A stretch of DNA of 64,000 nt. Origin: Octopus sinensis. Taxonomy: Eukaryota. The notes beneath the pieces are model-generated. The model saw only the letters and a list, made by a program, of their open reading frames with translations, was not told where the DNA came from and searched no databases. This document shows, piece by piece, positions 34,494 through 60,866 of the stretch (within the stretch, counting starts at the first letter, position 1; the number at the start of each line of letters is the position of its first letter). A program made the translations under genes and the position numbers. The stretch is taken from NCBI RefSeq assembly GCF_006345805.1, contig NC_043000.1:114080001-114144000 (forward strand), given 5' to 3'.

Positions 34494-35361
34494 CAATCAG
34501 CAGTAGCAACAGAAGAACGTCGAATACAAACTGATCTACAGTCTCTGTGTGTTTGGCACAAAAAGCAGTTTAACTCTATTAAGGATTGTTTACAGACTGA
34601 TCAACTGACAATAATAATAATAATAATAATTATAATTATAATATAAAGTGACTTTCTATCGATTTGATAGAAACATTTAAATTAAAACAAAAATTCTTTT
34701 AAAATAGAAATAAAAATGAAATAAAAATAAATGAAATGTAAAAAAAAATTAAAAATAATGAAAAATATGTAAAACTGATGGGTGACAATTTGGATGGTGG
34801 GTGGCATCGAGTATCCACCATGACCACCGCAACTGACGGGTGTTACGGACAAACAGATGAATAGAGAGAGAAAGAGAGAGAGAGGAGTCCTATTGTTATA
34901 AAAGGCAACACAAATGAGACTTCCTGTTAGATTAGGGGACAGGGGTTAGATCCATGAGAATCAAGGGCAAGTATCCCTTACCTTTATAGAACAGGTAGAG
35001 GGACCATAATTAAGGGTGCAATGTGTCACTTGTAGAGAATATGTGTATGCTTGTATGCATGTATGCACACACGTGTGTATGTACACATACACACACACAC
35101 ACACACATACATACAAACACATATACATACATATATAAAGTATATATATGTTCAAATATTTTACATAATATATACAGGTACATATATATTACCTATAATA
35201 TATATAATGTAACTATATATGTACATACATATATGTATATATGGCGGTGACCCCTAATGCCAGTCAGGGTAAACAGGTAATCCCATATTTTCGGAGGCCG
35301 TAAATAACAGTAGCATAATAAGTAAGAAAGAGAAAATTTCTCCTAACAACTGGTCAACTTG

Positions 35362-35475
35362 TCATACTACAGCCTGCTTTGTACTGCCGGTGGACGCTAC
35401 CAAAGATGAGACGGTCAGAGCGACTTTGGCAAGTCCTTTCTCCTCCAAGATGTCATGGGCCGAACACATACGCCC
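35362..35475 (-). CDS. LRCH: LRCH-family gene, distal terminal coding exon (end of the calponin-homology domain, no TM; soluble isoform)
   Basis: Strong acceptor ctcatttttctctctttttgcag|, phase 0, encoding GRMCSAHDILEEKGLAKVALTVSSLVASTGSTKQAVV*. Closely matches my recollection of the vertebrate LRCH C-terminus (LCLPLHILEEKGLSQVAVTVQALL). Confidence 0.88.
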   Translation of the reverse strand, partial: GRMCSAHDILEEKGLAKVALTVSSLVASTGSTKQAVV

Positions 35476-35877
35476 CTGCAAAAAGAGAGAAAAATGAGAA
35501 TATGGTTAGAGCTATTTAAGAAAACAGAACAGCAATGATGTTTCCAAAAAACACCACCTAAATTATTGTGGTTACTATTATTTTTTTTTTTTTAAATCAA
35601 AGAAAAATGACCCATGCATCTTTGCTTAAATGCAAAGAAAATAATGTGTTTGTGACAGACATGATAAGCTAATAGGGAAACAAATGAAATCTAAAGGTGA
35701 GGAATACGCAGGAAAGGTGGTGCCCCAGCTTGGCCACAGCCAAATGACTGAAACCAATAAAAGAATAAACTGGATTGTTCTGACAGCATGGGACAGCCAG
35801 TAAAGGGTAGGGACACTGGTGGACCTGGTCAGCTCTACACATGATGGCACCTCTGGGACCATTAACCAACAGCTTAA

Positions 35878-36097
35878 CCCTTTCATTACTGTATTTCTGT
35901 TGAGATGCTCTGTGCTTTTCAATTAATCTTAAATATAACAAAGAATTTAGTAAAATAACTTAGTTATCATTAAGCTAGTGTTAGGATCATAAATTGTGAC
36001 TAAGGTTTGGTGGAAGATTTTAATTCAAAACTTTTGAAAACAGCACATTTGTACTACAGTGCTAGAGGCGGATTCAGCCAGGTTGGTAACGAAAGGG
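35878..36097. mobile_element. piggyBac-type MITE
   Basis: ttaa|ccctttcattac ... gtaacgaaaggg|ttga. Confidence 0.85.
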
Positions 36098-36183
36098 TTG
36101 AAACAAGATGACGATATATATTCGATATACAGAGGAGAAGTAGTTTAAAAGTAGATCTACATGAATGTGTTAACATTATTTAA

Positions 36184-36396
36184 CCCTTTCATTTATTTTG
36201 AGGTGCTCTGTGTCTCTCTCAACTAATTTTAAATATAACAAAGAATTTAGTAAAATAACTTGGTTATCATTCAGCTAATTTTAGGAACATAAATTGTGAC
36301 TAAGGTTTGGTGGAAGATTTTAATTCTAAACTTATGAAAACGAGACATTTGTATTCAGAACCAGAGCCAGTTTCAGCTGGGTTGGTAACGAAAGGG
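36184..36396. mobile_element. piggyBac-type MITE, second copy
   Basis: ttaa|ccctttc ... gtaacgaaaggg|ttaa; same internal sequence as 35878-36097. Confidence 0.85.
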
Positions 36397-37334
36397 TTAA
36401 GTGAGGGAGTCTTAAAAAAAAGAGGGGCCTAAAATTACACAGAAAAGTACACTGGATACAAGAAGTATGAAACAAAACAATATAAAACAGAATGGTCACC
36501 GCTGGAACAATTTTGCTCATAAATCTGTTGATTCAGTGCTGACCTGGGGTTAAATCACAATTCACAACAAAGAGGGGTCAAAACTAAATAAAAATAACTA
36601 TTTAGTTTGTGGTTCAAATATATTTATGCAGCCAGCTTCATTATTGCTATTGTTGTTGTGACATACATTTTTCCATGCTGGAATATCAGATGAAATTTGT
36701 TGAAGGAGATTTTTTTTTACAAGTTGGATGCTCTACCTGTTGCCAACCCTCAGTAGTTTCCAAGCAGGGCAACATTTTCCCTCCCTCAACCCAGATATCT
36801 TTCTATTGAAGACTACAAACATGACACAGCTTTTGTGACTACAATCACCATGCAATATACATATATAATACATACATACACACACACAATGGGCTTCTTT
36901 CAGTTTCCAACTACTAAATTCATTCACAAAACTTTGGGCCACCAGAGGCTTTAATAGAAGACACAGACCCAAGATACCACACAGTGGAACTGAACCTGAG
37001 ATCATTTGGTTGAGAGGCAAGCTTCTTAACCAAACAACTGTGCTTGCACAAACCACAAGACCCCAAAATGATGATTTTCAACACACCTTAAAATATCTAG
37101 CATAACTGCTACTAGTTTGAAGGCATTCCCTTCTCCCTTGTTTATGCTTAGCATCACTGACTTACCATCTGAGCCAAACAAGGTCCACTTAATTTAAGTT
37201 CTAAACCTTTCTCAAACAATATTCCCAGCTTGCTGCTCAAATTTAGTAACAAAAAGATGTGGACATCTTATAATCACCAAAACTACATAAGTGTATGCAT
37301 CCTGAACATCCTGGTTTCACTGATTGTGACCAGG

Positions 37335-37621
37335 TTGAGCGTGATCGTTACCGCGTCGCCTTACTAGCACTTGTGCTAGTGACACGTGAAACATTCAAGC
37401 GAGGTCGTTGCCAGTGCCGCTGGACTGGCTCCTGTGCAGGTGGCACATATAAAGCACCATTTGGGCATGACCATTGCCAGTACCACCAAACTGGCTCTCA
37501 TGCCGGTGGCACATAAAAGTACCCACTCCACTCTCGGAGTGGTTGGCGTTAGGTTCGCCAGACCTCAGTCAAATCGTCCAACCCATGGAAAGCAGACGTT
37601 AAATGATGATGATGATGATGA
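37335..37621 (+). mobile_element. Retroposon 3' fragment with (GAT)n tail (RTE-like tail family)
   Basis: Ends catggaaagcagacgttaaatgatgatgat; same tail at 62400-62652 and 63700-63785. Confidence 0.65.
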
Positions 37622-40600
37622 GGCCGGTTACTCTGCTTCCAAACCAATGCCAGGCCATTCTGCAATTATACAATGCACTCTGAATATGGCCATGTTGGTT
37701 GAAAGAAAGGAATTAGAGAGACCACTTACCTTAGACACAGGGGACACTAATCTGAGTTTCTCAGAGTTGGAGGCTTCAAAAGCCCCTCCAGAAGGTTTTA
37801 GTCAACTTTTCAAAAATTCCCAAATCACATAAAAATTGTAATCAACAGCAGATGATCAGTTGGAGGTGTTTTATTAACAAGAGCTCCTCTGAGCATTCTC
37901 TTTACATTTTGTTTTGTCCAGTTACATCAAGTTCACTGTTATTTTATATTTACAACAATAAAAATGATGTTTCTTGTGTGCTGTTGTTTTTGTTATTTCC
38001 TTTGATGTTTTTGCCGAAGTGGCTGCAGTATTAATATGTTTACCTGTTGTTGATGTTGCAGGTTTAACTGTCAGAAGTGGTGGGGTTATGTAAATAGCTA
38101 ACAGGTACTCGGCTGTTCTACCAAATCTTCAAACTTTCAGCCTCTTTTTTGCTTCTCTCTTCTCTTCTTTACTCCAAGAATAATAATGACAAGATTTCAC
38201 AATGGTCAAGTCACAGCTTGCAGAGTGAGGACTTCTATCAAGGCTGCTGGAATAATTCCTCACTTTTTTTTTTGTTTTCAGGTGTAGTTTTGATTTCTGT
38301 TGTTGCTTCTAGATTGGTGGGGGAGGAAGGGGGTCATTTCTACTGCTACAGTTGTTATTGATGGTGGTGTTGGTGTGGTTGACAGCAAAATTGATCTTCA
38401 AGCCTTTAAGTGGACAGTATCACCACAAAATGTCTCTGTTATGTTGTAAAAGACTAAAAAATGTTGAAGTAGGATCTGCACTCTGACCACGTAAAACCCT
38501 CACCAACAACAACCCAAACAGACTCATGGCTTGAAGGGTTTGTTGCTCGAGTAGTGCAAAGGCACCATCCACCAGGAGCAGGGACTCACCGACAAATGCT
38601 GGATGCAGCGTCACACTGTTGCAGCACGTCCTCATACTACTGCCACATGTGAAACTAGATGTTCATGCAACAAACAACAGGGTAAGGGGCCACTTGGTAG
38701 TTCAATCAGGAAGATGCTTTCATGCTTTTCCTGACATTTAGAAAGGAATTCCAAACCTATCCCCAACCAGAGTAATTTATGAACTCCCAGAATTATCCCT
38801 CAAGCCCCAGCACTAAAACAGCTATGACCCTTATGCACCAGGACCTTATTTCTATTAGCACATCTACCGACCATCACCTATGTCTGTCATCCTAAATACA
38901 ACAAAATAGAGATGAAACCTCAGCTTGCCTTCAACAAGTAATCTAATCTCCATTGTCCTGTGTTAGTCACATGATGCAAGTGATGAAGGTTCGTTACAAG
39001 TTTGTTTCCAGTTAAGTCACCAATTTGGCATACAACAAACCTTACTATTCCCCAAAATAAACCATTCCCATCTTGGTTGCTATGCCCCATTGCCTCTACA
39101 CCAGCTTACCCGACCTCCATTCAAACGAGACTCTTCTGGTTTCTCCTCTTATTTTTGTCACCTTTTCATTTCCAGTCATGCTGAGTCTCTTTCTACATTT
39201 GCAGAACCAGTCAACCCTTGCAACTGCGTTCCTCCTCATCATTATTGCTACTAAGTCTGGAGGTAATGATGGAGGCAACCACAGTGGAAATACTGGGGAG
39301 GCCTGTTGTTTAGCGATGGCGCAGTAGGTCAACTTGCCACCAGGATAGCCATAATTAAACATCTTTTGCCTCCCACCCCCACCCAATGCCTCACCTTTTG
39401 TTCATCTTTATGGAATAAGAGGAAATGAGACACCACTTATATGATGGTGATGCTTACAACCAGTGTGATGTCAAGACAAGGACACACACATGTACACACA
39501 CATGCACATACACGTAATATTAATTCCCACTTAAAAGTGGACGTCTCAGAACACAAAACACTCAAACAGTTACCATGATGTTCCCTCGGGATACTAATGC
39601 AGTATATTGTGTTCTAACACAAGATCCACTTTTAAGAGGGGATAAATATTACCTTTTGGCATTAACACTGTTTCTGTTGTTATTAATTAGTTTTTAATGA
39701 GTCCACTAGCTAATCACAGTACTAGTGTCTGAATAGACAGTGGGATTCAATATGTGTATTGTGAAGGAAAAATCATTGCTATGTCTAACCATGAATGTCT
39801 ATCATTGATAAGGCCAAGGAAGGCGAAAATCACAGGATCTGGTTTTACTGGCAGAGGTAGCATGCAATTATCTCCCACTGGTGAACTCAAAATTCAATGC
39901 AACCAGCCATACATGTGATGGAGGGATGGGCTTCACCCCTCCCTCCCTATGCAGTAAAGAACTGAATTAAATACTACACAGCATTTAGTCCTGCAGGTTA
40001 ACAACTCATCCCGATCCTCTTTGATGCAGACATTTCATAATTAAAGCAAAAATAAAACAAACATGTAATAACAACAAAAAAAAAAGAAAAGAAAAAGACA
40101 AAGAGAGAAAGGTAAAGTTGTGGATTAGTTTTTATCAAAAAAGTTTTAATTTACACAAGATTCTGAGGACAGAGACACGGGACTGTGGGTGACATTATTA
40201 CAGACAGACAACCAAGAGTGGAAAACATGGACCTTTTTTTGGTATCTTTTAGTTTTGTACAAATATTAGACCCCACCACCACCACCACCATTGCCAGTAT
40301 TGGCGGAGGGTGTAGGGGGAAGGTAATTCAATCTGCTAAAAATAGCAACTAAATTTCTCTCAAGTCACGCATTACAGTCTTTGAAAAAAGGAGGACGGAC
40401 ACATTACAATAATGTAGTCCTAGGTAAACTATGTCTAAATGAAAGACAGGATGGTCACGGTTGGAATGTCTTTGATCATAGGTCAGCTGGATCAGGGCTG
40501 ACCCGCAGTTAAATATCACTATTTGGAGTAGTATCTATTAGCATTCTCTCTTCTCACACACAGCCGGCTGAAGTAACTAGTAATGGAATTACACCCTGCA

Positions 40601-40689
40601 ACAACCATTACACCATGGTTAGCCCACATTACTCTGTAAGGAGCAGAGGACCAGTTTCCAGGCATATATATACATACATACATATATAT

Positions 40690-40934
40690 ATCAAAATAAG
40701 CAACAAGGATATCTAAGGTAGTGTAGTACAATCATTTCACGCTATTTCATTTTATTAAACACTGTAAGTATTACATCAGTTTTAAAATCTCGAGCAATCT
40801 TCAGCCACATATAGAATTTTTTAATTAAACGAACAATGCACATTTTTATACTTATTTCACAGTGTTTAATAAAATGAAGTAGCATGAAACGATTGTACTA
40901 CACTACCTTAGATATCCTTGTTGCTTATTTTGAT
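40690..40934. mobile_element. Short foldback element, probably a PLE 3' end
   Basis: Arms ~40690-40763 and ~40859-40934. The spacer has a decayed minus-strand ctgaaga...aaaactg hammerhead-like remnant. Confidence 0.55.
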
Positions 40935-42594
40935 TATAATCACCCGATTTGATTTATATGGATAATACCATACAAAATTATGGTGCCTTTAACTAAAATA
41001 CCATATTCATCTGAATCTAAATTTTGCTGAACTTATATATATATATATATATATACATACATACACATATATATTTCTTTCCAGATGGGATGCCAGTCTG
41101 TTGCAGGATTACTCTTTCTTACCAGCAGAGTGGAAGGGAGCAAACATGAAATGAAGTGTTTTGCTCAAGAACATAACATCATCCGGTCCAGGAATTGAAA
41201 CCACAATCATACAACCATGAGTCCGACACCCTTACCACTCAACCACATGCCTCTACTGCTATTACGGTACCATGATGTAATGTCGCTATGCACTATACAC
41301 AATGGTACCCGAATAATACCCTGCTTGCCATCCAACACCAAAAACTACACGGATAAACAAAGTAGCCTCTACATAGTTACTCAGCCTGCAAGATATAGCA
41401 GCCAACTCACTCTCAAATCACACCTAAATGCCTAAAAAAGGCGAAGAATACATAAGATAATGCAGTCCTAGACAGCACCAAAATTTGGAACGGTCATCAC
41501 TATAAAAAGCCTTTGTTTGTAGGGGCTGACCCAGAGTTAAATAGCAATAATCACAGGGATGATAAAGTGGGTTCCTCCCTTGCCTAACACTGAGAGAGAG
41601 CAAAATACTGTGTTGTGATATAGTTTGTAGGGATAAACTGTCAGTTACGTCCTCTCTAGTGGGTACACGCCAGAAGAAGGGGACAGGGAGCATACCCTAT
41701 GTTACTGAAAGCAACAGGAAAAGATTTTAGGCAACCCCAGCATTTCACTGGTACTTTATTCTATCAACCCAAGGAGGAGGTTCTATAATGCAGAAAATCT
41801 TTGTATGTTTGCATGTGTGTGTGTGTGGTGTGTTAGACACACACACATACACACATACAAATGTTAGTTTTCCAATGAAAGAGGGACCATTCAATAAAAA
41901 GTAAATTCAATTTTTCTAAACTGGATTCTTGTTCTACAAACTTGGGTTTCCCATTATTGGGATTATTAAGTGACCCCTGATTTTTTCATAGAAACCCCGA
42001 GACAGTAGAGGGAAAGGCATTATGAAACTATAACACAGGGGTTACTGCCACACTAGGGAACACCCGATTATGAGGTGGTAATGGAAGGGTTAGACTGTGA
42101 CACGGATATTGAGTCTGCCACTAAAGAACATGAACAGCCCAGTTGAAGAGATTCAGAACAGTATCCCCCCTCCAATCCCATTTCATTCACAAACTTTGGG
42201 CTGAGCTGGAGCTATGATATAGAAGATACTTTCTCAAAATACGAAACCACGAGATTCAAAACTGAAAACCCCATATTTGCAAAAGTAAACTTGTTAACCA
42301 GTCAGCCTGGCCTGCAAAACACACACACACACGTATCTCTAGACATTTGTGAAGAGAAAGGAAGAAATGACGTAAAAATTACTAAAGCATGTTTATCAGA
42401 AGAACAGAAAAGTGTACATACACACAGACGCACACACGTGCACTCACACACATTCACAGGCACAAACACACACAAAGTTGTACGCATCACAGCAAAATGA
42501 AATTTATAAAACTAAATCAAATTAAATTTGGCAACAAATTATTAAAATGCTCCAGCTGAGCCACCCGTAAAAAAAGCAAATGTTTAAATTTAGT

Positions 42595-42643
<49 letters not shown>

Positions 42644-43124
42644 CAAGAGACCGAGAGAGGGTGAGAGAGCAAGAGAGAGAGAGACAGACAGATAGAGAGA
42701 AAGCAAGAGAGATGTGTAGTGCAGTTTATTTGAAGCCTTGACATGGCTTTGTTGCTACTCTGAACAATAAACAAGAAACTTAGAATAGAAACTGGAGAGA
42801 ATCCTCAGCTCTCTCTTCATTTAAACATGTTTGATATGAACAAAAGTATATTTAAGATACATAAATCAATGTCTTTGATATATATACGGCACAAATAAGA
42901 AGGAGAGAATGGAAATGCTTGAATATGTAGTCTAGGGTTCAATCCCTCTTCATTGCCATTTGAAGTTCAGAAATGGAAAGGGAGATTTGTGAATTTTGTT
43001 TAGACAAAAGTCTTCAGGAAGTTCCTGTTAGAAATATCAGCCAAACGTTTGAGAGGAAGTGAACTTGCATCTCAGAGGAAGAAGAAGAATGTGGGGAAGA
43101 CTGAAAGAGCTGTGAGAAGGAAAG

Positions 43125-43745
43125 AGAGGCATCGTGTCCTGGGAGGGAGATAGGAGACATTGTGTCCTGGGGGGAAGATAGGAGACATTGTGTCCTAGAT
43201 GAAAAATAGGAGACACTGTGTCCTGGGAGAAGGAAAGAGACATGTGACCTGGGAGAAGGAAAGAGACATGTGACCTAGGAGAAGGAAAGAAACATTGTAT
43301 CCTGGGAGAAGGAAAGAGACATTGTGACCTGAGAGGGAGATAGGAGACATTGTGTCCTGGGAGGAAGGTAGGAGACATTGTGTCCTGGGAGAAGGAGAGA
43401 GAGACATTATGTCCTGAGAGGAAGACAGGAGACATTGTGTCCTGGGAGAAGGAAAGAGACATGTGACCTGGGAGAAGGAAAGAGACATGTGACCTAGGAG
43501 AAGGAAAGAAACATTGTATCCTGGGAGAAGGAAAGAGACATTGTGACCTGAGAGGGAGATAGGAGACATTGTGTCCTGGGAGGAAGGTAGGAGACATTGT
43601 GTCCTGGGAGAAGGAGAGAGAGACATTATGTCCTGAGAGGAAGACAGGAGACATTGTGTCCTGGGAGAAAGAAAGGGACACTGTGTCCTGAGAGGAAGAG
43701 GGAAACACTGTCATGAGAAGGGGAAGAAAAGGACACTGTGTGTCT
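43125..43745. repeat. Purine-rich minisatellite (~22-26-bp units, gagacattgtgtcctgggagaaggaaa) with a 219-bp higher-order duplication
   Basis: The block starting at 43209 recurs at 43428; the ORF track shows a 73-aa repeat. Confidence 0.92.
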
Positions 43746-44194
43746 TGCGAAAGGCAGACAGGACACCAGATGACTGAATACTTGTAACAGAACAAACTCA
43801 ATTAAGTCTCCAATGATCAGAGTTAATGAGTCAAACAACCAAACCTGTATCATAGAAGAAAACTGTGCAGAATCCTCTCAGAAGGATTGTTATTGTCTTT
43901 GGGAGGAGGTAACCATAAACCACGCCCCATTATAATGTCACCCATATGGCCCCTCAAGACTCAGAATGGGGTAATGGGTTCTGGATTTCTTCCTCTAAGA
44001 GATAAATAAAAAATATCTCAAACACATTCAATGTGATAGAGCTGTTTGGTAGATGCCAGGCTGGACAGATATTTCTTAGAATGACTGTAGTTTTAAAGGT
44101 ACTGCACAAACTGACCACACGCACACTGACAAAAATCAATCCTTACTTCTAGAATCATGGCTCTTAAGAATTGTTCCTCTATTATATACTTTAA

Positions 44195-44640
44195 CCCTTT
44201 CATTACTATATCTATTTTGAGATGTTCTGTGTTTTTTTCAATTACTTCAAATATAACAAAGAATTTAGTAAAATAACTTGGTTATTATTAAGCTAGTGTT
44301 AGAAGCATAAATTGCAACTAAGGTTTGGTGGAAGATTTTAATTCAAAACTTATGAAAATAAGACATTTGTACTACAGAGCCAGAGGTAGTTTCAGCTAGG
44401 TTGGTATCGAAAGGGTTAAGAATTGTTTCTCTATTATATATTTTAACCCTTTCATTACTGTATTTATTTTGAGATGCGCTGTGTTTCTTTCAATTAATTT
44501 TGAATAAAACACAGAATTTAGTAAAATAACTTAGTTATTATTAAGCTAGTGTTAGGAACATAAATTGTGACTAAGGTTTGGTGGAAGATTTTAATTCTAA
44601 ACTTACGAAAACAAGGCATTTGTACTACAGAACCAGAAAA
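44195..44640. mobile_element. Tandem pair of piggyBac-type MITEs (44195-44415 complete; 44447-~44640 truncated)
   Basis: ttaa|ccctttc...gaaaggg|ttaa; same family as 35878. Confidence 0.85.
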
Positions 44641-45264
44641 GCTGTAAATTTACTTTAAACATTGGAAGTGAATGACTTCCCTGTGTCCGATGAGATCTTG
44701 CCAAATTTTCTATATCAAGTCGAGCTATTGTGTAGATTCTACACCCGCTAGAAATGGCCGCACCATTTCCTTCTCATTTTATTTTAATAATCATTACTAG
44801 GTTTATCATGTATAATATAATTACTACAAGAGGTACAATTAAGTATAGTAATTATGTCATCTCAGGGCCCCTTAGAGCCTGATCGTCCCTTCAACAGGTC
44901 CAGCACTCCCTTCAGGGTGGTACTGTCCATGTTGAGAACCTCTGTTCGAGAGCCACAGATTTAGGGCCCCTAGGTAAGGTACATAACTCTGCTGGTTAGA
45001 TTGCCTAACTTATACAAAATAGCATGCTCCAAGGTGAAAAGGTTGAACCATTTGTTTTATAGCTGGATGCCCTTCCAAATGTTCCCCCTTACTTGTTTTC
45101 CAAGTAAGGGATCTCTTAGTTCACATAACTTCAAAGGCACAAAGCAACCAGATGTTTTATTATAAGACAGAGAAGTACCAACAACAGTGTTTGAATGCTG
45201 GGGACTTTTATATAAGTGAGCGCAGATGTAAACACTAACACATACACACACACAGACAAGCAAA

Positions 45265-45267
45265 GAG

Positions 45268-45298
<31 letters not shown>

Positions 45299-45365
45299 AG
45301 AGAGAGAGAGAGATAGGTAGGTAGATAGATAGGTAGGTAGGTAGGTAGATAGATAGGTAGATAGG

Positions 45366-45437
<72 letters not shown>

Positions 45438-45515
45438 GAGACAGACAGACAGATAGATAGATATATACAGATAAATAGATAGACAGATCTAGATATATAG
45501 ACAGACAGACATGTA
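45265..45515. repeat. (AGAT)n/(AGGT)n/(AG)n microsatellite
   Basis: Directly visible; a similar tract lies at 47262-47445. Confidence 0.95.
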
Positions 45516-46111
45516 GATATGTTATTCAACCCAAGTTCAACAAATACATTATCAAAATGTGTTAAAGCCATGATTATTGTGTCCTTTATTTTGATATTTC
45601 AAGACCCCTCTGCCCCGTAATGAAATTCAGCAAGGGATATAAGCCACCAAACTACTATTTCTCCTACACACAGACCTATGATTCTCAGCTTCACCAAGAA
45701 ATCAACCTACAAAAAGTTACATGGTTTTCTTTTTTTAATTCCCCCACCCAGACAAAACCCAAAACTGGTTTCTTGAGCAATGAAAAGAAAATGAAAAATA
45801 GATGAAACAATTCTCCCCCGTTACCTCCACTTCACCCACCAACCCACTCTCTGCTTTTGACTAAACAAAAATAGTTTGAAATGACATGGCAAATAGCAAC
45901 TGCTTTTTACAGACACACTGCCCATTAAACCTTTCGATTTAACCCTCACATTAAATATGACTTTATCCCAGATATACTTCAGTTTTATCCAAACAAAACC
46001 TATTGGATTATCCCAAATATATTTCAGATTTACCCAACCATAACTTGTAAACCCAGATAAATTTCATTATATATATTTCAATTTTGCCCTCACAAAACAT
46101 GTCCAACTACA

Positions 46112-46778
46112 CTGTTCTATATTTTAGAGATGAGGAATTATGTACAGATAGGTGTCCCCCACCTTGTTTGTTTTTACCACAACGTTTCGGCTGATGTACT
46201 CTCCAGCCTTAATCAGGTGTTCTGGTGGAATTTCAAACCCAACCCTTTATTACAAAAATAATAGGTTTATAAGCCCTAAAATTTGCTCCATAACTGCCCA
46301 TGAGCATATAGTGTAGTGGTTAAGAGCACAGGCTACTAATCCCAAGATTCCAGGTACAATCCCAGTCAGTGACTTGAATAAATAATAATCATATTTGTCC
46401 TCATCTTGTTTGTTGTTAACACAATGCTTTGGCTGATATACCCCCCAGCCTTCATCAGGTGACTTGGGGTAATTTTGAAATTTAACCACTACACCATATG
46501 CCCATGGGTATAGGGTGTAGTGGTTAAGAGCACAGGCTACTAACCCCAAGATTCTGAGTTCGATTCCAGGCAGTGACCTGAATAATAATAATAATAATAG
46601 TAATAATAACAACATCGAAAAATACCTTAAGAATGTGAACCCAGGTTCGAAATTTCATCAAGACACTTGATGAAGGTATATCAGTCGAAATGTTCTGTTA
46701 ACAACAAACAAGATGAGGTCAAATATCCGTCAAATGTAAATTATGTACATAATTTCTCATCTCTTAAATATAGAACTG
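46112..46778 (+). mobile_element. Composite element: tRNA-like Pol III head plus hammerhead-bearing PLE-type tail, in rearranged/inverted copies
   Basis: Heads at 46296 and 46500 (gtgtagtggttaagag...gagttcgattcc). Hammerhead-like motifs at 46178-46220(-), 46418-46461(-) and 46663-46700(+). The termini are reverse complements. Confidence 0.65.
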
Positions 46779-47398
46779 TATGCCATTTTGGGCAAGAAGC
46801 CTTGAGCCAACCAAAAGTTTGCGAGTGGATTGTTTCATGCAATAGCCTATGCATGACACAGCTCCTGGTCACAGGTTCAATCCCAGCTGCCTGCTTCCCA
46901 ATCAATATTCAACATAACCAGAATATTTGGTAGATGGAGATGGCAACAGAGTGGACTCCAACAAAGACACTCAAGAGCCAGGAGATAGTGTTAAACTAAA
47001 TGATGAATTGGGATGAAACCCATGACACCAGTATATCACTGGTATACATATTATTTGACACCAAGATGAGATGACTCAATGGAGTCTGATATGTTTCAAA
47101 TCCACACTAACAACTTAGGAAAATGAAACATTTTCAGTTTCATGTTACACTGCTGGCCTGACAATGATGTCTTTTCAAGTAGACAGTGAACCAATTATGT
47201 GTTGACAGGTGGAAGGTGCAGTTTATCTGACTGCATTCATGTGTATGGTGTGTATGTATGTATATATATATATAGATAGATAGATATAGATAGACAGATA
47301 GATATAGATAGACAGATAGATATAGATAGATAGATAGAGACAGATAGTTAGATAGATAGATAGATAGATACAGACAGACAGACAGACAGACAGACAGG

Positions 47399-47446
<48 letters not shown>

Positions 47447-48880
47447 GATAGGTGGTGTAAACAGTGGCAGGTCTTTGTAGAAAGAAAGAGTGAAAGAGAA
47501 ACTAAGGAAGACATGGGTTCAAGCAGTGAAGATTCATCTCAAAATGTTGGAAATTCATAAAAGGGATAGAAAGGACAATAAGGGACTCATGCAATCCATA
47601 CTAGCATGGAAAAGCAGAGAAATGATGATGATAACTGATTGGCTCAAACTGGACACAGGTAAGGGTGTAAAACCAAAGTAGAACAAAACAAAAAACCAAA
47701 CTACCATTTCATTTGAGATGGTGAATTGTCTGAGATTTGGTGGTACTTGGTGCCGAGACAACTACCAAAGAATTCGCATATTGAAACTACTATCAAAAAA
47801 TTATCAAACTTTACAGAGACCCCCCCCCCCAAATTAAAAATAATAATAATAACTTTTGTTATAAGTGGGAGTGGTAGAGGTAGGGAAAACGGTATTATCA
47901 AGCTGGATACCAGGTCCAAGTACTTGCAAGTAGACCCCACTAAAGGTACCCACAGACCAGACAGTGGTGGTTCCAAACTGAGCGACAGTGTTGCCAAGTA
48001 GTGGTGCCAAACCGAGCGATTGAGTGGTGGTGCCAAACAGAGACTTTTACCCAAGTAGGCTAAGCTGATATTTGAACCCAGAACACAAATGGCTAGAATC
48101 AATCCTTGAAAGACATCCAGTTTGATGTTCTTACTCTTCCAACAATCCAGAGATACTTTCTTTTTTCTCTATGAACCCCTCCACCACCAGAAGAATGAAA
48201 GAGAAAGTTGACATCGGCTGGATTTGAACGCAGAGACCAGAGGTTTGGAACCAATACCACAAGGCTTTCTATCTGACAGCTCTCTTCTTGGTGGATTTAT
48301 TCATCAACTTCAGACTCACTGGAATTACAAAATAACATCACTGAATGTATGTGTGTATGGATGTGTGTGTGCGTGTGTGTGTGTCCATGGGAGTTACTGG
48401 ATGATATCTTAAATATAGAAAATATTGCTCCCCTACACCTGATATCCACATGCCCAACATTTGGATATATATATGTATTAAACACACACTCATCTAATGT
48501 ACAAATGAGAAAGAGTACTCAATACACATGATAGAGTTTATATATCGCTTACTTGTTTTACTTAATGGAATGTGACCAAGCTGGAGCACAACATTCAAAG
48601 GTTTCAGCATACGCCAAAGGTAAGGGAAGGTAACCAATATGGAATTGAATGTACATAGACACACACGCAGATACACGACATTTCATCACATGGGTGTTTA
48701 ATCAAAGCAGGGTACTATAGACATCAACAACACTGAACCATACCATTTAATACTAAATTTCAATAAACTTATCCTAACAATCCAACTTCCACTTCACCTA
48801 TTCCATGCCATTTTAACCCAACAATTGTCAAAATACCATTTCCTCTACCCTTAACCCCACATAGTCATATCATATATATT

Positions 48881-49123
48881 TCTTTATTGCTCACAAGGGG
48901 CTATTCATAGAGGGGACAAACAAGGACAGACAAAAGGATTAAGTCGATTACATTGATCCCAGTGCGTAACTGGTACTTTATTTATTGACCCCGAAAGGAT
49001 GAAAGGCAAAGTTGACCTCGGCGGAATTTGAACTCAGAATGTAACGGCAGACGAAATACCGCGAAGCACTTGGCCCGGTGTGCTAACGTCTCTGCCAGCT
49101 CGCCGCCTTTTTTTTTTTTTTGC
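48881..49123 (-). mobile_element. Full-length Meta-type SINE with a 15-bp TSD
   Basis: TSD catatcatatatatt at 48866-48880 and 49124-49138. Confidence 0.9.
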
Positions 49124-49444
49124 CATATCATATATATTATCTCAAAAGCAGGCCCCAGAACCTGTGTGTAAATATTTTGAATTAAGGCACAAGGCCTGAA
49201 ATTTTGATGGGGATGAGGGTTAGCTTATTTCTCAATCTCAGTACGTGACTGGTATTTCATTTTAGTGACACTGGTAGGATGAAAACCAAAGATTTGAAAA
49301 GAGCCAATAAATATACCACCACAAGATGTTTCCTCCTCACCAGCAACATGGCAAATCCATGACACCCACATAGACTTTATCCCACCCCAACTGCCACCTG
49401 TCTTGCCTACCAATAACCTTCTTACTGCTTTCCACATCAATAAG

Positions 49445-49765
49445 TTTTCTCTTGTCACACACCACCGGCTTTTGTTTCACTTTGTCTGTCACTGGGTTTT
49501 ATTGTATCACAATGTCACATCACTGGGCCTTGCCACAGTCCATGTCACACCCCATACTACAAGGTTTTGTCACACTTCGTCATTGGCTTTTCTTGTGTCT
49601 CGTCACTAGGTTTTGTCACACTTCATACTGCTGTGTCACAATGACAAAAGACTACCCTCCACCAGCACCACCACTCTGTGTCACCTGTCATGCTGTTCAA
49701 TCACGTTACTCATTCTGATCCCCAGATCATGTCACACACCGCTTGACAAGATTATGTCATTACCT
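49445..49765. repeat. Degenerate minisatellite built on a tgtcac motif
   Basis: More than ten (tt)tgtcac(ac) variants at irregular spacing. Confidence 0.55.
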
Positions 49766-51244
49766 GTAACTCTTAGAATATATTACTGCCTTCTGCCCAG
49801 ATATTAAACTATAAACCATTCTAATGGATTGTTTCATGCAATAGCCTATGCATGACACAGCTCCTGGTCACAGGTTCAATCCCAGCTGCCTGCTTCCCAA
49901 TTAATATTCAACATAACCAGAATATTCTTCAATCTAGAGCCAATACAGTTTTTAACTACAAGCTGTTATCAACAATATGGGTCACAAAACTGTGAAGAGG
50001 GAGGGGACAGGTGGTGGAAATCAGATTAGCTATCTCCCAATAATAATAATAATATAATAATAATAATAATTATTATTATTATTATTAATAAGGTGAAGAA
50101 CTGGCAGAATCATTGACATGTAGGCAAAATGCTTAGCAGCATTTTGTCCATCCTTACATTCTGCATTCAAATTCTGCTGAGGTCGACTTTGCCTTTCATC
50201 ATTTTAGGGTCGATAAAATAAGTACCAGTTGAATACTGGGGTCGATGTAATCAACTGTTCCCTACCCACAACATTTCAGGCTTTGAGCCTATAATAGAAA
50301 GGATTGTTATTATTATAAAGGCCGTTAATAGTGGCAAGTTGGAAAAGTTTCAAGAAAACTCTTCAATGTTGCCACTACATACTAAAAGACACCCACATCC
50401 AACCAACAAATCTCTCTCTCTCTCTCCTTACCTTCTCTGTTGAATCCAACTTGTGACTCTGCACCAAATGTGCAAAGCCTTGCTTTAAAAGCCACTGTTT
50501 TCCATTCTCTGTTCCTGTTCAACTGTCTGATGCCAGGCAGATCTACATGGAGCAACAGCATCAGAAAGAAGGTTTTACTGGTGCCTATGTCCAAGATTAG
50601 ACAAGGTAGAATTCTTTGCCCATCTATTTCTATTCTTACCTGTTCTTTCACAGCCAGGTAATAAGATTCACGGCTGAAACAGTCCAGCCTTGTCATACAC
50701 AGTGTCACCTTGACAGTTACATTAATGTATCTGTGGAACATTCAGCCACTCATATGCAAATTCAATGAGTCTGTTGCTTCAGTTGACCAAACAACCGAAA
50801 ACCTAGGATTGGAACCAGCAGAGCTCCTATATGTTTCATATTTTTTTCATATTCTTACCTGTTCTCTCTTACAGCCAGGTAAGATATTCAGCGGATAATC
50901 TCTCCCTTTCTCAAACCACTCCTTAATTTCCCTTTTATGTTCTTAACTTGTTTAATGACCACTTAAGAAAGTAATAGGACAAGTTTCAGCCATTAACTGA
51001 CAACTCACTTCAGTATCACTAACTGGGTTTGAACTCACACCTCTTGGACTCCCATCTCCACCACAACAATGGTTATATTTTACCAAAGACAACAACACTG
51101 TCAAAAACTATTGATTCCCGTCTCAAACCTCTCCCTTTTCTTTAGTTTTGTATTCCTTTGCTGAAAATCCAAATATGAAACCCTAGTATATTGCTTATAC
51201 AACTTACATCTACCCTTAACCTTCTAATACAGAAGTAAAGATCA

Positions 51245-51866
51245 ATTTGGGGGCCGGGGTGGGTGGGTTGATTACTTTAACCCCCAGCACTCGAATGGTT
51301 TTTATTTCACTGACCTCTAAAGGATGGAAGGCAAAGTTGACTTTGGCAGAATTTGAACTCAGAACGTAAACATGGACAAAATGCCACTACACCTCTTGTC
51401 CAGTTTGCTGATAATACTGCCAGCTCGCCACCTCATTGATAATCCTTTCTACCATAGGCACAAGGGCTGAAATTTTTGGGGAGGGGACTAGTCAATTACA
51501 TCGACCCTGAAAGGATGAAAAGCAAAGTTGAACTCAGCAGATTTGATCTCAGAATGTTGTGACGAATGAAATACAGCTAAGTATTTTGTCCAGCATGCTT
51601 ACAATCCTCCCAGCTCACCAACTTAGTAATAACAATAACCTTTTCTACTGGAGACACAAGGCCTCAAATTTGTGGGGAGGGGACCAGTCGATTAGATCAA
51701 CCCCAGTTCTTGACTGGTACTTAATTTATCGACTCCGAAAGGATGAAAGGCAAAGTCGAATCTGGTGGAATTTGATCTCAAAATGTAGAGACTGACAAAA
51801 TACCGCTAAGCATTTTGTCCAGTGTGCTAACGATTCTGCCAGCTGGCCACCTTAATAATAATAATG

Positions 51867-51904
<38 letters not shown>

Positions 51905-52110
51905 GATAATAATAATAACAACAACAATGTTTCTAATTTAGGCACAAGGCCAGAGTGTAAGTCAATTCTGACAACCCCATTAGTTTTGGCTGACTAACCC
52001 TGAAAGAATGAAAGTTAACCTCAGCAGGATTTGAACTCAGAATATGAAGAGCTGGAGCAAATACTGCAAAGTGTGTCACCAACGCTCTACCAATTCAGCA
52101 GTCTCACCAC
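51245..52110 (-). mobile_element. Cluster of four co-oriented diverged Meta-type SINEs
   Basis: Repeated gaaaggatgaaaggcaaagt...atttgaactcagaa...ccagctc motifs separated by (AAT)n. Confidence 0.85.
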
Positions 52111-52905
52111 CTTCACCTTAATAATAATAATAATAATAACCATAATAATAATAACAACAATGGTAATAATAATGATGAGTTTTGAGAAGGACAAGCAATG
52201 CTGAAGGGACAAGTCAACATAAAATGATGTAACTGTTTTTTTTTTTTGTTCCACTGCAGTCTGCTGTCCCCAAACCAACAAAGATCACAAATGAAGACTC
52301 AAACCAGAAGAACAGAGAAGAGAGACTTAGTCCAGAAACCTAATTAAATGCATACACACACACAAACACAACATACAGTGTGTGGTGTGTGTGCCTTACA
52401 TAGCCATGTATTCATCCTCCACACCACATTGTATATATAAGGGGTGGTGGTATTATAATGGTGTCAGTGATCAAAAGGATAGAAGAAGCAGGCACTACTC
52501 AAAGCCGGCTATGTTGAAGAGTTACTATAGACATGGTCTAAGGCACTAAATGTAATTAGTACGGATAACAGTAAACAGAAGTATACTGACAACCACTAAT
52601 GAACTCATAGTTAATTAAGAAAAAAAAAAAGAAAAGGAAAAACAATAACTTAAGGCAAAAAAGAATACAAACAAACACATACACATACATACATACATCT
52701 ATGCATACAGACATACACACAATTTAAAAGGGCTAACAGGTTTCCTTGGAAGTCTGTAGAAAATAGTGAAGTTCTGAATCGAGAGGTTTGCGGTTCAAAT
52801 ACAGGATAACTTCAGTAACATGTATTGAATGATGAGGTGAATCAGAAAAATGTTTGGTTGAGCCGGGTGAGGAGAGGCACAGGTTACATTAAACATTATA
52901 TACAC

Positions 52906-52936
<31 letters not shown>

Positions 52937-53692
52937 CACACACAAATAGGCCCATTATATTGTATTAATACATGCATACACAATCAAACACAAGTATGTA
53001 TATTAACATTCAGAGTTTTTGAAAAAGACATGAATGACCAAAGAAGGAAGAATTGTTGTTGCATTGGTCTGGGGAATATTCGACCAGTGAAAATGGTAAG
53101 GAAATAGTTTAGGGAGCTTCAGTGATTGCCTCTTTTTTTTTTTTTTTTCTTAGCCAAAAACAAAAAACAAAAACATTACTAGTATAACAACGATGAAAAT
53201 GTGATCCGGCACAATGCCACAAACTTCAGAGGGCTTAAAGTCAAGGATACTGGTCCCAGTAGATAACTGGTACTTATTTAATGTACCCCAGTATAGTGAA
53301 AGACAAAACATAGTTCTAGATAGGGAGTGAACTCAAAATGTAAAGGATGGGAACTAACAACCACCAGGTATTCAGTCAGACACTCAACATTTTCTTCTCA
53401 CCACAACCTTGCTCAAATTGTTTCCAATAGAAAACAGCTACACAAACCTTGGGAAGAAGTACAACCTAACATACGGACCCCAGTATTAAGCAGGTACTTA
53501 GTCTATTGATCCACAGGCAGACATAAAAGGACTTAATGGCAAATTCTTTGGTTGTTTTGACAGTTGCTCCACAGATTCCCCAAATAATAATAATGGTAAA
53601 TCTGAAATTTTCCACCAACTTTTTTGTTTTCTTCCATTAGAAGAAACAAAGACAGAGAGTTCAAGTAAATTACTCCTCTTAATGTATGTATG

Positions 53693-53738
<46 letters not shown>

Positions 53739-53751
53739 CATACATATATAT

Positions 53752-53788
<37 letters not shown>

Positions 53789-54652
53789 GCATATACACAC
53801 ACTCAAACAGTGAGAGAGGATTGTGTATAAACACAAAGAAATAAGTCCACAGTAATTAAGAGTTCTGTTAATTACAGACCATTAAACTCAGTGTTTCTCT
53901 TAACAGCTGATGAGAAAAAGCATGAACTATACATGAAATTTATGCTTTTATTTATATTTGTGTGTGAGTGTGTGTGTGTGCGATGCACGCACATGTAGGG
54001 GAGTAGAGTATTGAATTAATTTGCAACTCCTCTCTGCTGGAATGATACAAGATTTCCATTCAAACACAACACAGTAAATTCCAGAATTTTCCTAATGTCT
54101 GGGGCTATTTGATAGTTTAACAGACAAAAACTAAGCTCTCTGATTAAATTTATAAGTTTGTGTGAGAAGGTTTATCACCGGAGGAAGGCAAGAGGAGAAA
54201 GACTGGGGGAACCTACTTTGTTAAGGAATAAATAGCTAGAATGTGGTCCTAAAAAAGGGCCAAGAGTAAAATCTAAGAATACAAAGAAAAACGAAAAAGA
54301 AAATGGATTATTTCATTCTGGTTGGAATGTTCCAAGTTTCCAATGTAAAATTTACACACACACACACGCATTGACATATATACACATATACATAATAGAC
54401 ACACAGAGAATTATATACATGCACACGTATTGTCTTTTTACTGTGTATCTCAGATACCAGTGCGGATAAAGAGAGTCAATGACATCGAGCCCAGAAAAAT
54501 GAAAGGCAAATTCAACTTCAGTGAGATTGGAACTCAGAACAAAAAGGGCCATACTTAAATACGGCAAGTTATCTTGCCCTTGCTCAACACAATGAATCTA
54601 CCAATCCACTGCCCTCATATATATATATATATATAATATATATATATATATA

Positions 54653-54907
54653 TACACAAAATTTAGAGGACTGATCATTAAAAGTAGACAGCCTATACGC
54701 CAGATATAGATGTAAAAATCGCCATTTTCCACGAAGAATTTGCTCTCAAGAAAAAACTCAGCAAAAACCTGCTTATTTTTACATTTTGCTTTTTTTGCTG
54801 AGTTTTTTCTTGAGAACAAATTCTTCATGGAAAATGGCGATTTTAGCGTCTATATCTAGCGTATAGGCTGTCCACTTTTAGTGGCCAGTCCTCTAAATTT
54901 TGTATGT
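54653..54907. mobile_element. ~255-bp near-palindromic foldback/MITE
   Basis: tacacaaaatttagaggactg...aaactcagcaaaaa / tttttgctgagttt...cagtcctctaaattttgtatgta; arms ~115 bp. Confidence 0.8.
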
Positions 54908-57503
54908 AAAAAAATTTTTAATCTTCAGATTTTTTAAAAAATATGCTAGGCCACTGGTTTTAATTGATTAATATCAATTTCTACCCAAATTTAATTTTAA
55001 ATATATATATATAGAAGAGTGTTGTAGTGTCCTTGAAGTATTGCAGCATATGTAGGAAAGTGTGTATTTCAAAAAGGCTGTAGCAACAACAATACAGTTC
55101 AAGCATTAAATACTGATAACAAAGATAATGAAATATTGCTTTAGAAATATTTAAGTATAATATTTTAGGTAAAATGCTCCTTTGTGAAGGTGTTAAGGGA
55201 ACATGAGTGGGGTAAAGGTTTTGCATCCTTCATGATTCATCGTGAATCAGCATGCCGACATAAAGGATGCACAACTTCCTGCTCTCAGTTCCTTAAGATG
55301 TTAACAGCTTTGTGAAGATGGGCATTTTACCCGAAATATTAGGATTAAATATTGCTTAGGCAACATTACAATATCTTCGCTCCTGCTATTATTGATGATT
55401 GAATTTCTAACTGCATTGCTAAAACATGCTGTGTTCTATATATCTGTGTGAGTGAGTGTGTGTGTATGTGTTTGTGTGTGTGTGAGAGAGAGAGAGAAAG
55501 CGAGAGAGTATGTAAAAGTTCTTTGTGCTTTTTTCTCTGAAAGATGGGTGGATATAAGTTATTGCACCAATTTAGTTGCTTCCATTTACATGAATTCCTG
55601 AGGGAGATAAAGGAAACTTTTCTGAAAAACAAAATAATTCCCCTCTAATGAGGTTTCCATCTGTTTCTGAAATTTTTCTTTTTTTTCCTTTAAAATTTGT
55701 AATTTGAAAATATTGACAAGTTCAGTCTCAATTGCATTATTATCCATTGTTGGGAACCGGTTGAGCAGTGAGGTTAGTTGAAAAGAAGATTGGACAGAGC
55801 AGGACATTTTGCATTCAATTTGGTCAAGATACATGCCATTCCATAGTTTTAGTAGAGATAAGTATTTTGTACGTGTGTGTGTGTGATATTTTTTGTCTAT
55901 TTTGAGATGTAACAACATAAAAGGATTCAATCAGTTCTTCAGATGGGAATGTGGAGTGTGATGTGTGTTTCTTCTGTGGAAAGTTAACGGGATTACATAT
56001 CGAAACCAAGGTTTCAGTCAACACATTGTTCCCCTGATATGTAGCCGACCTGATGTTTGGCTCAACAAAATCTTGGCTTAAATTACATCCAATTCTGTTA
56101 ACCTTATTTATGTAACAACATGTGTGTGTGTGTGTGTGGTTGGTGTTGTGTAGAGGAGAAAAAGAAAGAAAAAGACAACAGGCAAGAGCAGATGCTTAAG
56201 CTTAAATAGGGAGAAAGAGAGAGACAGAAGGAGAGAAAGTATAAGACTGATGGACAGAAAATAGATAGGGAGGATACAAAAAAAAAAAATTATCATTTGA
56301 TGCTGGCAAACCAAAAATCACAGCCAAAAGGAAAAAAATTTTAAAAGCCTGGTTCTCTCCCTTTGTTAGCAGTCTATTGAAACATGAATACACATTTGTG
56401 TGTGTGTGTGTGTGTGTGTGTGGTTGGTTGGTTGTTTTTTTTTTTTTAATGGAGAAACAAACAAAAGGATGAAGCAAGTTAATTGTGGAGAGCAGGGAGT
56501 TGTTTTCTTTTGTAGTTAATGTTCAATATTAGGGGTGGTTAGGGTTAGAAGGGAGATAAAAAAAAAAAGCGGGGGTGGGGGGTTTCGTCTTCCAGCTTCT
56601 GAATTAGTCATCACCGTTTATGTTTTCATCTGTTTATTTCTTTTCATTTTTTTTCTTTTCTTTTTTTCACCAACCAAACAAACAAAAAAAAAATTAAAAA
56701 AAGCTGGACAAAACAAGGATTGTTTGGGCTTGGGTTAGGGGTCATGGGAGGTGTCGCATGTTCTTGTGGTGGCATGGCACAGTGTTGGCCCCATGGCAAC
56801 ACAACAGTGGAAAAGTTAGTTGAATAATAGGAGCGAATGACTGACTCGGCAACATCCAAGAATTAATATAATCATTATTATCATCCTCATCATGGTGGGT
56901 GAATATTTGTTTAGTTTTTGCATTGATGATGATAGTAGTAGTAGTAGTGGTAGTAATATTGGTAGTAGTATTGGTGGTAGTAGTAGTAGTAGCAGCAGCA
57001 GCAACAGAAAGAGAAGTGTAGATTTTTGTCAGGTTAGAAGAGGCACTGGTTCCATGAAAAACTGCCTCAAGGAAGAATGTCTGTTCTGCTACCAATCTTT
57101 TTGGTCCACTGTCGGTGCAATGTAGGGTTATGTCGCAATGTGGTCACCAAAACTGAATTCAGTCATGGGTAACCATTCTCAATGAGCGTCCATCATTGGT
57201 GTTGAAGTCACGTCCACAAAGTCACAAGGTAAACCACAACAGAAAAATGGACAATCACTGACCACGTAACGGAAACGATGGCTTCATTCTTCACATAACT
57301 TGTTTCCACCATTTTAGGGTCTTCACAATTTTTACCATTTTCTCTTCTTTTTTTGTTTCTTTTTTTTCTTTTTTTTTTTTTTTTTTTCAAAGTTTGGAAA
57401 AAGAAAAATTGTCATTTTCTGGAGAGTTTTCTTCTGTTTTTGTTTTCTTTTTCTTTTTAAACTTTTTCATTGGTCTGAATGTTATTCTTTGAACCATCAT
57501 TAT

Positions 57504-57541
<38 letters not shown>

Positions 57542-57714
57542 ATTGCAATTTAATAATGAAAGTATATTATTATGGTTAGGATAAAATATCCTTTGTTTTT
57601 GTTTTTTTGTTGTTTCTTCTTCTTACGCTTGTTTTATTTTTTTTTCTTGTTTAGGAGGGGAAGGAATAGCAATGGTTAGTAAGTAGTAGCGTCCACCATG
57701 CAAAGCATTCCTTT

Positions 57715-57894
57715 TCATGATGGTGGAAATATCCAGAGAAGCAGGAAGTTGGAAAGTAAAATGATTGCACAGAAGTAGGTAACAAGATAGTCTTTAGCTG
57801 TTAGTCGAGGAAAGCACATCAACTGCTCAACAGTGAAAGCGACTCGTGCAGGTCGTAACATCTCCACTATGTCATCGCATGCACAAAGGTGAGC
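57715..57894 (-). CDS. LRCH: LRCH-family gene, proximal alternative terminal exon (end of the CH domain plus a C-terminal transmembrane helix)
   Basis: Acceptor cttttgactttcatttcag|, phase 0, encoding AHLCACDDIVEMLRPARVAFTVEQLMCFPRLTAKDYLVTYFCAIILLSNFLLLWIFPPS*. Aligns with the other exon (C...DI.E....VA.TV..L) and ends like TM-tailed vertebrate LRCH isoforms (..WLFP..). Confidence 0.8.
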   Translation of the reverse strand, partial: AHLCACDDIVEMLRPARVAFTVEQLMCFPRLTAKDYLVTYFCAIILLSNFLLLWIFPPS

Positions 57895-58952: not shown

Positions 58953-59055
58953 AATAAAGTTCTATATTTAAGATGAGGAGTTATGTACATTATTTACATT
59001 AACAACAAACAAGATGAGGACAAATATCCGTCAAATGTAAATAATGTAAACAATG
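58953..59055. mobile_element. Tiny inverted 3'-end insertion of the 46112-46778 family with a 12-bp TSD
   Basis: gttctatatttaagatgagga (minus orientation) joined to aacaacaaacaagatgaggacaaatatccgtc (plus orientation). TSD tattcttcagat at 58941-58952 and 59056-59067. Confidence 0.75.
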
Positions 59056-60739: not shown

Positions 60740-60818
60740 ACATGGTGCAGCAAAAAGGTTGCCCCTGATTTCAAAAGTTAATAATTTGAAATAGGGGTAA
60801 CCTTTCTGCCACACCCTG
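60740..60818. mobile_element. Very short Tc1/mariner-type MITE remnant
   Basis: catggtgcagcaaaaaggttgcccct ... aggggtaacctttctgccacaccctg|ta. Confidence 0.6.
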
Positions 60819-60835
60819 TATGTGTGTGTGTGTGT

Positions 60836-60866
<31 letters not shown>

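What the first reader, a model, noticed from the sequence alone, without database searches (positions are those of the whole stretch)
35362..57894. Hidden LRCH gene with two paralogous alternative last exons: membrane-anchored versus soluble switch
Seen: two minus-strand exons 22 kb apart, neither in the ORF track. Both have a pyrimidine tract plus CAG, both are phase 0 and both end in a stop. They align with each other (AHLCACDDIVEMLRPARVAFTVEQLM vs GRMCSAHDILEEKGLAKVALTVSSLV). Only the proximal exon adds a ~22-residue hydrophobic tail. Known: this is the last CH-domain helix of LRCH proteins, and vertebrate LRCH1/3 have TM and non-TM C-terminal isoforms. Inference: the duplicated terminal-exon switch is shared by a mollusc and vertebrates, so it may be ancestral to bilaterians. 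It would change both localisation and the CH domain itself.
Basis: partly seen in the sequence, partly recalled or inferred. Interest (0 to 1): 0.75.

Follow-up and report, generated by a model that had tools for sequence, protein, structure and literature searches.

The report
Ancient twin endings of LRCH gene
This octopus cytoskeletal scaffold gene (LRCH) can end in either of two duplicated last exons, one predicted to anchor the protein in a membrane and one to leave it soluble; the same pair in the same order occurs in snails, clams, insects and humans, so the switch is likely older than the chordate age now on record for it.

Summary
Confirmed. Minus-strand exons 57894-57715 (A, 59 aa, hydrophobic tail) and 35475-35362 (B, 37 aa) are alternative last exons of one Octopus LRCH gene. 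The shared donor exon lies 18 kb upstream of A, outside the window. The gene is not hidden: RefSeq models hold both junctions in two octopus species, and public contigs join the shared exon to B. Each exon supplies the last 26 residues of the CH domain. Only A adds a predicted tail anchor. The same event is already catalogued for human LRCH1, LRCH3 and LRCH4, dated to Chordata. What is new here: both exon types occur in gastropods, bivalves and insects, at the same junction, and wherever order can be read it is A before B, as in fish and human. Rows grouping with a jellyfish show no hydrophobic tail. One origin within protostomes is supported by sequence. One origin shared with chordates is not shown: B exons match across phyla (44%), A exons do not (27%), and tree tests reject neither history. 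I put a single bilaterian origin at about 65% and convergence at about 30%.

The parts
57715..57894 (-). Proximal last exon A, coding part with stop: 59 aa = last 26 aa of the CH domain, a short linker, a predicted TM helix and 4 trailing residues
   Evidence: Ends RefSeq isoforms such as XP_036358263.1. The AlphaFold model has helices 891-902 and 909-931 of 935.
57895..57924 (-). Splice acceptor of A: TTTCAG, 12 of 16 pyrimidines at -20 to -5
57633..57638 (-). First AATAAA after the stop of A; candidate poly(A) signal, use not shown
35362..35475 (-). Distal last exon B, coding part with stop: 37 aa = last 26 aa of the CH domain plus a short tail ending QAVV, no TM helix
   Evidence: Ends RefSeq XP_036358268.1 and XP_052823514.1. 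Joined to the shared exon in public contigs.
35476..35505 (-). Splice acceptor of B: TTGCAG, 15 of 16 pyrimidines at -20 to -5
35250..35361 (-). Start of the 3' untranslated region of B; its end was not found
   Evidence: Contigs of X2 and X8 run from the junction to 35250 and 35251
57895..64000 (-). Window part of the intron that leads to the shared penultimate exon. That exon lies outside the window at G000:C4:114155854-114155931 (26 aa, phase 0, donor CAG|GTAGGA); the intron is 17,959 nt to A and 40,378 nt to B. Further LRCH exons lie up to 167 kb beyond the window end.

Best explanation
One octopus LRCH gene splices its shared penultimate exon to either of two duplicated last exons, giving a protein predicted to be tail-anchored in a membrane (exon A) or soluble (exon B), and the pair was likely inherited from a single duplication in the bilaterian ancestor. 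Shown: the two exons, the shared donor, both junctions in gene models, the B junction in public contigs, and that each exon completes the CH domain. Inferred mechanism: if the transcript is spliced to the weaker proximal acceptor and cleaved behind A, A is terminal. Otherwise A is skipped and the stronger acceptor 22 kb further on is used. Both exons end in a stop, so only one can be coding. Predicted outcome: with no N-terminal hydrophobic signal and only four residues after the helix, isoform A would be a tail-anchored protein with LRR and CH domains facing the cytosol. Isoform B would be a free scaffold with a different final CH helix and, in most spiralians, a PDZ-type C-terminus. The switch would thus change both location and CH-surface partners. 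Step confidences: real alternative last exons 0.97; membrane versus soluble 0.85; one origin in protostomes 0.9; one origin with chordates 0.65.
For: Gene: RefSeq isoforms share 1007 residues and then end in A or B. B is identical (37 of 37 aa) and A 95% identical between two octopus species. In 3 of 4 runs laid (3 studies) a loose end at the B acceptor equals the shared exon letter for letter over the 26-30 letters shown; X5 and X8 bridge with more than 31 letters on each side, X2 has 29 upstream. A, B and one upstream CH exon each gave a single strong match in the genome, and no other LRCH exon lies in the window. Domain: Pfam CH runs to profile position 104 of 109 with either exon. Both AlphaFold models place a short and a long helix there, and only A has a further 23-residue helix. 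Range: both types occur in Haliotis, Gigantopelta, Mytilus and Trichogramma and in vertebrate LRCH1; Branchiostoma has a TM type. Order A then B: this genome; fused gene models of Nucella, Pinctada, Drosophila birchii and carp; human coordinates (strands recalled). Spiralian and arthropod TM tails beat a layout-preserving shuffle (1 of 1000 reached the score). B exons of protostomes and deuterostomes share states rare in A exons and in the cnidarian group, for example Gly14 in 23 of 28 and 15 of 16 rows against 3 of 17, 0 of 14 and 0 of 5 (columns picked after looking, and 12 of the 14 chordate A rows have a gap there).
Against: Over the 26 shared residues, protostome A versus chordate A averages 27% identity, below A versus B within lineages (31% and 34%). 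Octopus A is closer to octopus B (38%) than to a bat A (32%). This fails the ancestry criterion of PMC8373072 for exon A. Protostome versus chordate TM tails do not beat the layout-preserving shuffle (421 of 1000). The 26-column tree is unresolved and does not join the A exons. AU tests: one quick run put the independent history at p=0.047 and 0.083, a smaller set and a deeper search rejected nothing, and 'all A exons one clade' had the lowest p in the deeper search (0.11). B-B likeness may be the retained ancestral state, since the cnidarian rows are B-like. All 5 rows placed in a deuterostome-side group outside chordates were B type. One of them (P0337) has the cnidarian-like Ser-Pro at 14-15. 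Bichir LRCH1 has a TM tail that lost the CH ending, so A tails do turn over. Poly(A) use, localisation and topology are untested.
Confidence: 0.65

Rival explanations
1. Same gene anatomy and function, but convergence: protostomes and chordates each duplicated a single B-like last exon and each added a hydrophobic tail to the proximal copy.
For: No sequence signal unites protostome and chordate A exons. AU does not reject protostome A+B (p=0.38) or deuterostome A+B (p=0.23) as clades. The published catalogue dates the event to Chordata only. PMC9741552 reports that, of 42 events in genes where human and fly both have such events, only 7 showed common ancestry.
Against: It needs two independent gains of a C-terminal TM helix on the proximal copy at the same junction. 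The B-only shared states would have to be lost twice. One quick AU run leaned against it (p=0.047).
Confidence: 0.27
2. The pair is older than Bilateria: cnidarians or earlier animals also have a TM exon that my sample missed.
For: Only 5 rows grouped with the named jellyfish, and one species had two isoforms seen. The cnidarian exon begins like the chordate A exon (LCSP-DIL).
Against: None of the 5 rows, and neither Rhopilema isoform, has a TM tail.
Confidence: 0.06
3. The two exons belong to separate tandem genes, or B is a dead remnant.
For: Only 1 of the 15 O. sinensis isoform models fetched ends in B (the set was pulled with exon A as query).
Against: No second LRCH exon set in the window or genome. 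The B junction stands in contigs. B is the more conserved exon across phyla.
Confidence: 0.02

Closest known systems
Human LRCH1, LRCH3, LRCH4 C-terminal tandem exon duplication-derived substitutions (PMC8373072 supplementary table, events dated Chordata)
   Same: Same gene family, same junction inside the CH domain, a TM-type and a non-TM-type last exon, TM exon first.
   Different: Here the pair is in a mollusc and other protostomes, outside the published age. The A exon sequences cannot be tied to the chordate ones.
LRCH family (Foussard 2010, PMC2923620; review PMC7536344)
   Same: N-terminal LRRs plus one C-terminal CH domain; TM and non-TM isoforms are noted for human and mouse.
   Different: The passages I read mention no invertebrate TM isoform and do not say that the isoforms differ in the last CH helix. 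The review suggests the TM form puts LRR and CH outside the cell, whereas the octopus sequence predicts a cytosol-facing tail anchor.
RefSeq Octopus LRCH models (XP_036358263.1 A type; XP_036358268.1 and XP_052823514.1 B type)
   Same: Identical C-termini to the two window exons joined to the shared exon.
   Different: Automatic models only, with no comment on paralogy or age.

Membership tests
LRCH proteins | N-terminal leucine-rich repeats in the same gene | tested here: met
   Pfam LRR hits above cut-off. LRR exons from residue 113 on map upstream on the same strand; the first 112 residues were not found in the 200 kb fetched.
LRCH proteins | Single C-terminal CH domain | tested here: met
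   PF00307 at 946-1033 in both isoforms; closest solved structures are Vav and calponin CH domains.
Tandem exon duplication-derived substitution, C-terminal type | Two homologous exons in one gene, used one at a time | tested here: met
Tandem exon duplication-derived substitution, C-terminal type | Choice made by alternative polyadenylation | not testable with these tools
   AATAAA at 57638 seen. Contigs cannot show RNA ends.
Orthologue of the chordate LRCH event (criteria of PMC8373072) | Same splice site position | tested here: met
   Isoforms diverge at the same aligned residue in octopus, other molluscs, an insect and vertebrates. The genomic junction was checked only in octopus.
Orthologue of the chordate LRCH event (criteria of PMC8373072) | Between-species similarity above within-species similarity, exon B | tested here: met
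   44% against 31% and 34%
Orthologue of the chordate LRCH event (criteria of PMC8373072) | Between-species similarity above within-species similarity, exon A | tested here: not met
   27% against 31% and 34%; TM tails 421 of 1000 shuffles
Orthologue of the chordate LRCH event (criteria of PMC8373072) | Tree groups exons by type rather than by lineage | tested here: inconclusive
Tail-anchored membrane proteins | One TM helix at the extreme C-terminus and no signal peptide | tested here: met
   Prediction only: hydropathy 2.27 with 4 residues after it; N-terminal 11-residue maximum 0.56
Tail-anchored membrane proteins | Membrane insertion with the N-terminus in the cytosol | not testable with these tools
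   Needs fractionation and protease protection

The most novel reading that the evidence does not exclude
The LRCH last-exon pair arose once in the bilaterian stem and has been kept ever since as a two-way switch: a membrane-anchored scaffold with a fast-evolving last CH helix, or a soluble one with a conserved last helix that binds septins and a PDZ-type tail. It would join the 21 human events dated to Bilateria. It would also mean that reported differences between LRCH paralogues, such as LRCH3 recruiting SEPT7 while LRCH1 does not, could depend on which last exon the tested clone carried.
Probability: 0.3. Interest if true: 0.65.

Novelty: new member of a known kind. Interest (0 to 1): 0.42.

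Why it matters
Only 21 of 236 human tandem-exon substitution events are dated to Bilateria (PMC8373072, abstract passage), and LRCH is listed as chordate. Finding the pair across protostomes means either one more very ancient splice switch or a striking convergence down to exon order and a membrane tail. The LRCH review names the functional difference between TM and non-TM isoforms as an open question. A single-copy gene with both exons in flies and molluscs makes that testable exon by exon, and shows that the switch also swaps the last CH helix.

Tried and rejected
Pfam on the two exon peptides alone gave 0 families each. The run search listed no holder on record as RNA; the kind of the four runs laid is the tool's guess, and only the joined form speaks for spliced RNA. 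No contig covered the intron side of the B acceptor, which is not counted as evidence. X14 held only a 166-nt piece that does not reach the junction. ORF listing of the window showed no other plausible gene between A and B (by inspection). Weak genome matches at C9260 (E=0.9, with stops) and C21 (E=0.12) were not followed. No LRCH structure was among the 7 PDB matches. The ESM Atlas gave only generic CH clusters under 0.9. Earlier findings of the scan: none. The 26-column tree and AU tests were tried as proof of common origin and rejected as undecided. The PDZ-type ending was considered as a bilaterian B marker and found loose: 12 of 13 spiralian rows, 1 of 15 other protostome rows, 6 of 16 deuterostome rows, 3 of 5 cnidarian-group rows, and absent in octopus itself. 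No complex prediction was run.
Full report
Observation. Both exons are present as described: A at 57894-57715 and B at 35475-35362, minus strand, CAG acceptors, phase 0, TGA stops. They share 10 of 26 residues and 44 of 81 nt. B is the only other of 13,857 AG/phase-0 positions in 264 kb to score 25 or more against A, although plain tblastn gives only E=0.22. A has a 19-residue hydropathy maximum of 2.27, B of 1.06.

The gene. Exon A matches 36 octopus LRCH proteins at 95-100%. Mapping one of them on the window plus 200 kb of neighbouring genome places exons from residue 113 on, all on the minus strand. The shared penultimate exon (G000:C4:114155854-114155931) lies 17,959 nt upstream of A and 40,378 nt upstream of B. 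RefSeq models of O. sinensis and O. bimaculoides include isoforms ending in B. The A and B isoforms share 1007 residues and end exactly in shared exon + A or + B. In 3 of 4 runs laid on B, the loose end at the acceptor equals the end of the shared exon over the letters shown. Two bridge by the tool's 31-letter rule; the third has 29 letters upstream. A, B and one upstream CH exon each have one strong match in the genome. Separate tandem genes are therefore excluded, and the gene is annotated, not hidden.

What the exons encode. Pfam CH covers residues 946-1033 in both isoforms, so each exon gives the last 26 residues of the domain. B aligns to the last helix of the Vav CH domain. AlphaFold models show the same short and long helix in both and an extra helix at 909-931 of 935 in A only. 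There is no N-terminal hydrophobic stretch and only four residues follow the helix. By established knowledge this is a tail-anchor layout with the domains in the cytosol; it is a prediction. The A acceptor is the weaker (12 against 15 of 16 pyrimidines) and an AATAAA follows A at 57638. This fits competition between proximal termination and skipping, which is inferred.

Other species. Both tail types appear in Haliotis, Gigantopelta and Mytilus, in Trichogramma and in fish and mammal LRCH1. Branchiostoma has a TM type. Four gene models fuse an A-type start to a B-type end (Nucella, Pinctada, Drosophila birchii, carp), which I read as genomic order A then B. Five rows that group with Rhopilema (itself included) have no TM tail; four of them are unnamed and placed by tree only.

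What is known. The supplementary table of PMC8373072 lists LRCH1, LRCH3 and LRCH4 as C-terminal tandem-exon events dated Chordata, with both exon sequences and coordinates. With strands recalled (LRCH1 and LRCH3 plus, LRCH4 minus) the TM exon comes first in all three. I read that paper's dating section in full and passages. Of PMC9741552 I read passages and the convergence section. Its held supplement (15,271 characters) names LRCH once, as LRCH4, Chordata, tissue-specific, blood; I cannot tell whether its human-fly table is fully held, so a mention there is possible. Passages of the review PMC7536344 describe TM and non-TM isoforms and call their difference open; the LRCH4 study it cites I know only through the review. 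A word search of PMC2923620 found no 'isoform' or 'transmembrane' in its main text (passages). Passages of PMC5891429 show that LRCH3 649-777 recruits SEPT7 while LRCH1 does not. The 777-residue form is the B type; the LRCH1 isoform was not stated in what I saw. Passages of PMC5481333 concern another LRCH3 exon. Nine searches listed no paper on an invertebrate LRCH last-exon pair; I saw listings only, not all hits, and most subscription papers are not held.

Test of common origin. Of 476 proteins fetched, 399 had a locatable junction. I picked 80 by hand: 17 protostome A, 28 protostome B, 14 chordate A, 16 deuterostome B, 5 cnidarian group. Left out were near-duplicates, the four fused models, bichir and other aberrant tails, and 11 further representatives of unclear placement or type (P0360, P0369, P0381, P0397, P0399, P0404, P0409, P0416, P0419, P0427, P0458) plus P0461; two of these (P0381, P0427) have TM tails. 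Mean identity over 26 residues: B-B across phyla 44%, A-A across phyla 27%, A-B within lineages 31% and 34%. TM tails: for spiralian versus arthropod, 1 of 1000 within-segment shuffles reached the score; for protostome versus chordate, 421 of 1000 did, though only 13 of 1000 full shuffles. The tree is unresolved. AU tests on 77 rows (three long branches dropped): single origin p=0.21 and 0.27, independent p=0.047 and 0.083. On 52 rows: 0.15 and 0.45 against 0.39 and 0.17. With a deeper search no constraint was rejected (0.11-0.38). A few columns favour one origin: Gly14 and a hydrophobic residue at 20 mark B in both lineages, while Pro15 and a polar or basic residue at 20 are shared by many A rows and the cnidarian group. 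These were chosen after inspection.

Verdict. A real, annotated pair of paralogous last exons of a known kind. The new element is its presence across the protostomes sampled in the vertebrate arrangement. One protostome origin is supported by sequence. One bilaterian origin rests on junction, order, TM placement and a few residues, about 65%. Interest 0.42.

Noticed in passing
window 35362-35373, minus strand: Octopus, Argonauta and an unnamed member of the cuttlefish cluster end exon B in QAVV, whereas the 12 other spiralian B tails tested end S-x-V, a class I PDZ-type motif by established knowledge. Cephalopods may have lost or changed a PDZ partner.
   Followed up: partly
P0139, P0140, P0208, P0209 (bichir and reedfish LRCH1): The TM-type tail lacks the CH ending: Pfam CH stops at profile position 84 against 106 for the B form. 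Either a truncated CH on a membrane anchor or a gene-model error.
   Followed up: partly
P0363, P0365, P0366, P0378 (fly-group rows): The TM-type tail is 253-523 residues long, with an insertion inside the last CH segment and a long spacer before the TM helix.
   Followed up: no
window 17478-18491, plus strand: 337-aa stop-free frame that reads like the end of a non-LTR retroelement (by inspection) with weak C2H2 zinc-finger hits, all at or below cut-off.
   Followed up: partly
window 610-1110, minus strand: Reverse transcriptase fragment (RVT_1, E=2e-5, below cut-off), likely a LINE remnant.
   Followed up: partly
G000:C4, LRCH exons upstream of the window (loci L004-L012): The RefSeq isoforms differ by several optional exons in the low-complexity middle region and just before the CH domain, so the gene has much further alternative splicing.
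   Followed up: no
P0089, P0111, P0234, P0378: Four public gene models fuse the two alternative last exons, probably annotation errors, but useful as markers of exon order.
   Followed up: yes
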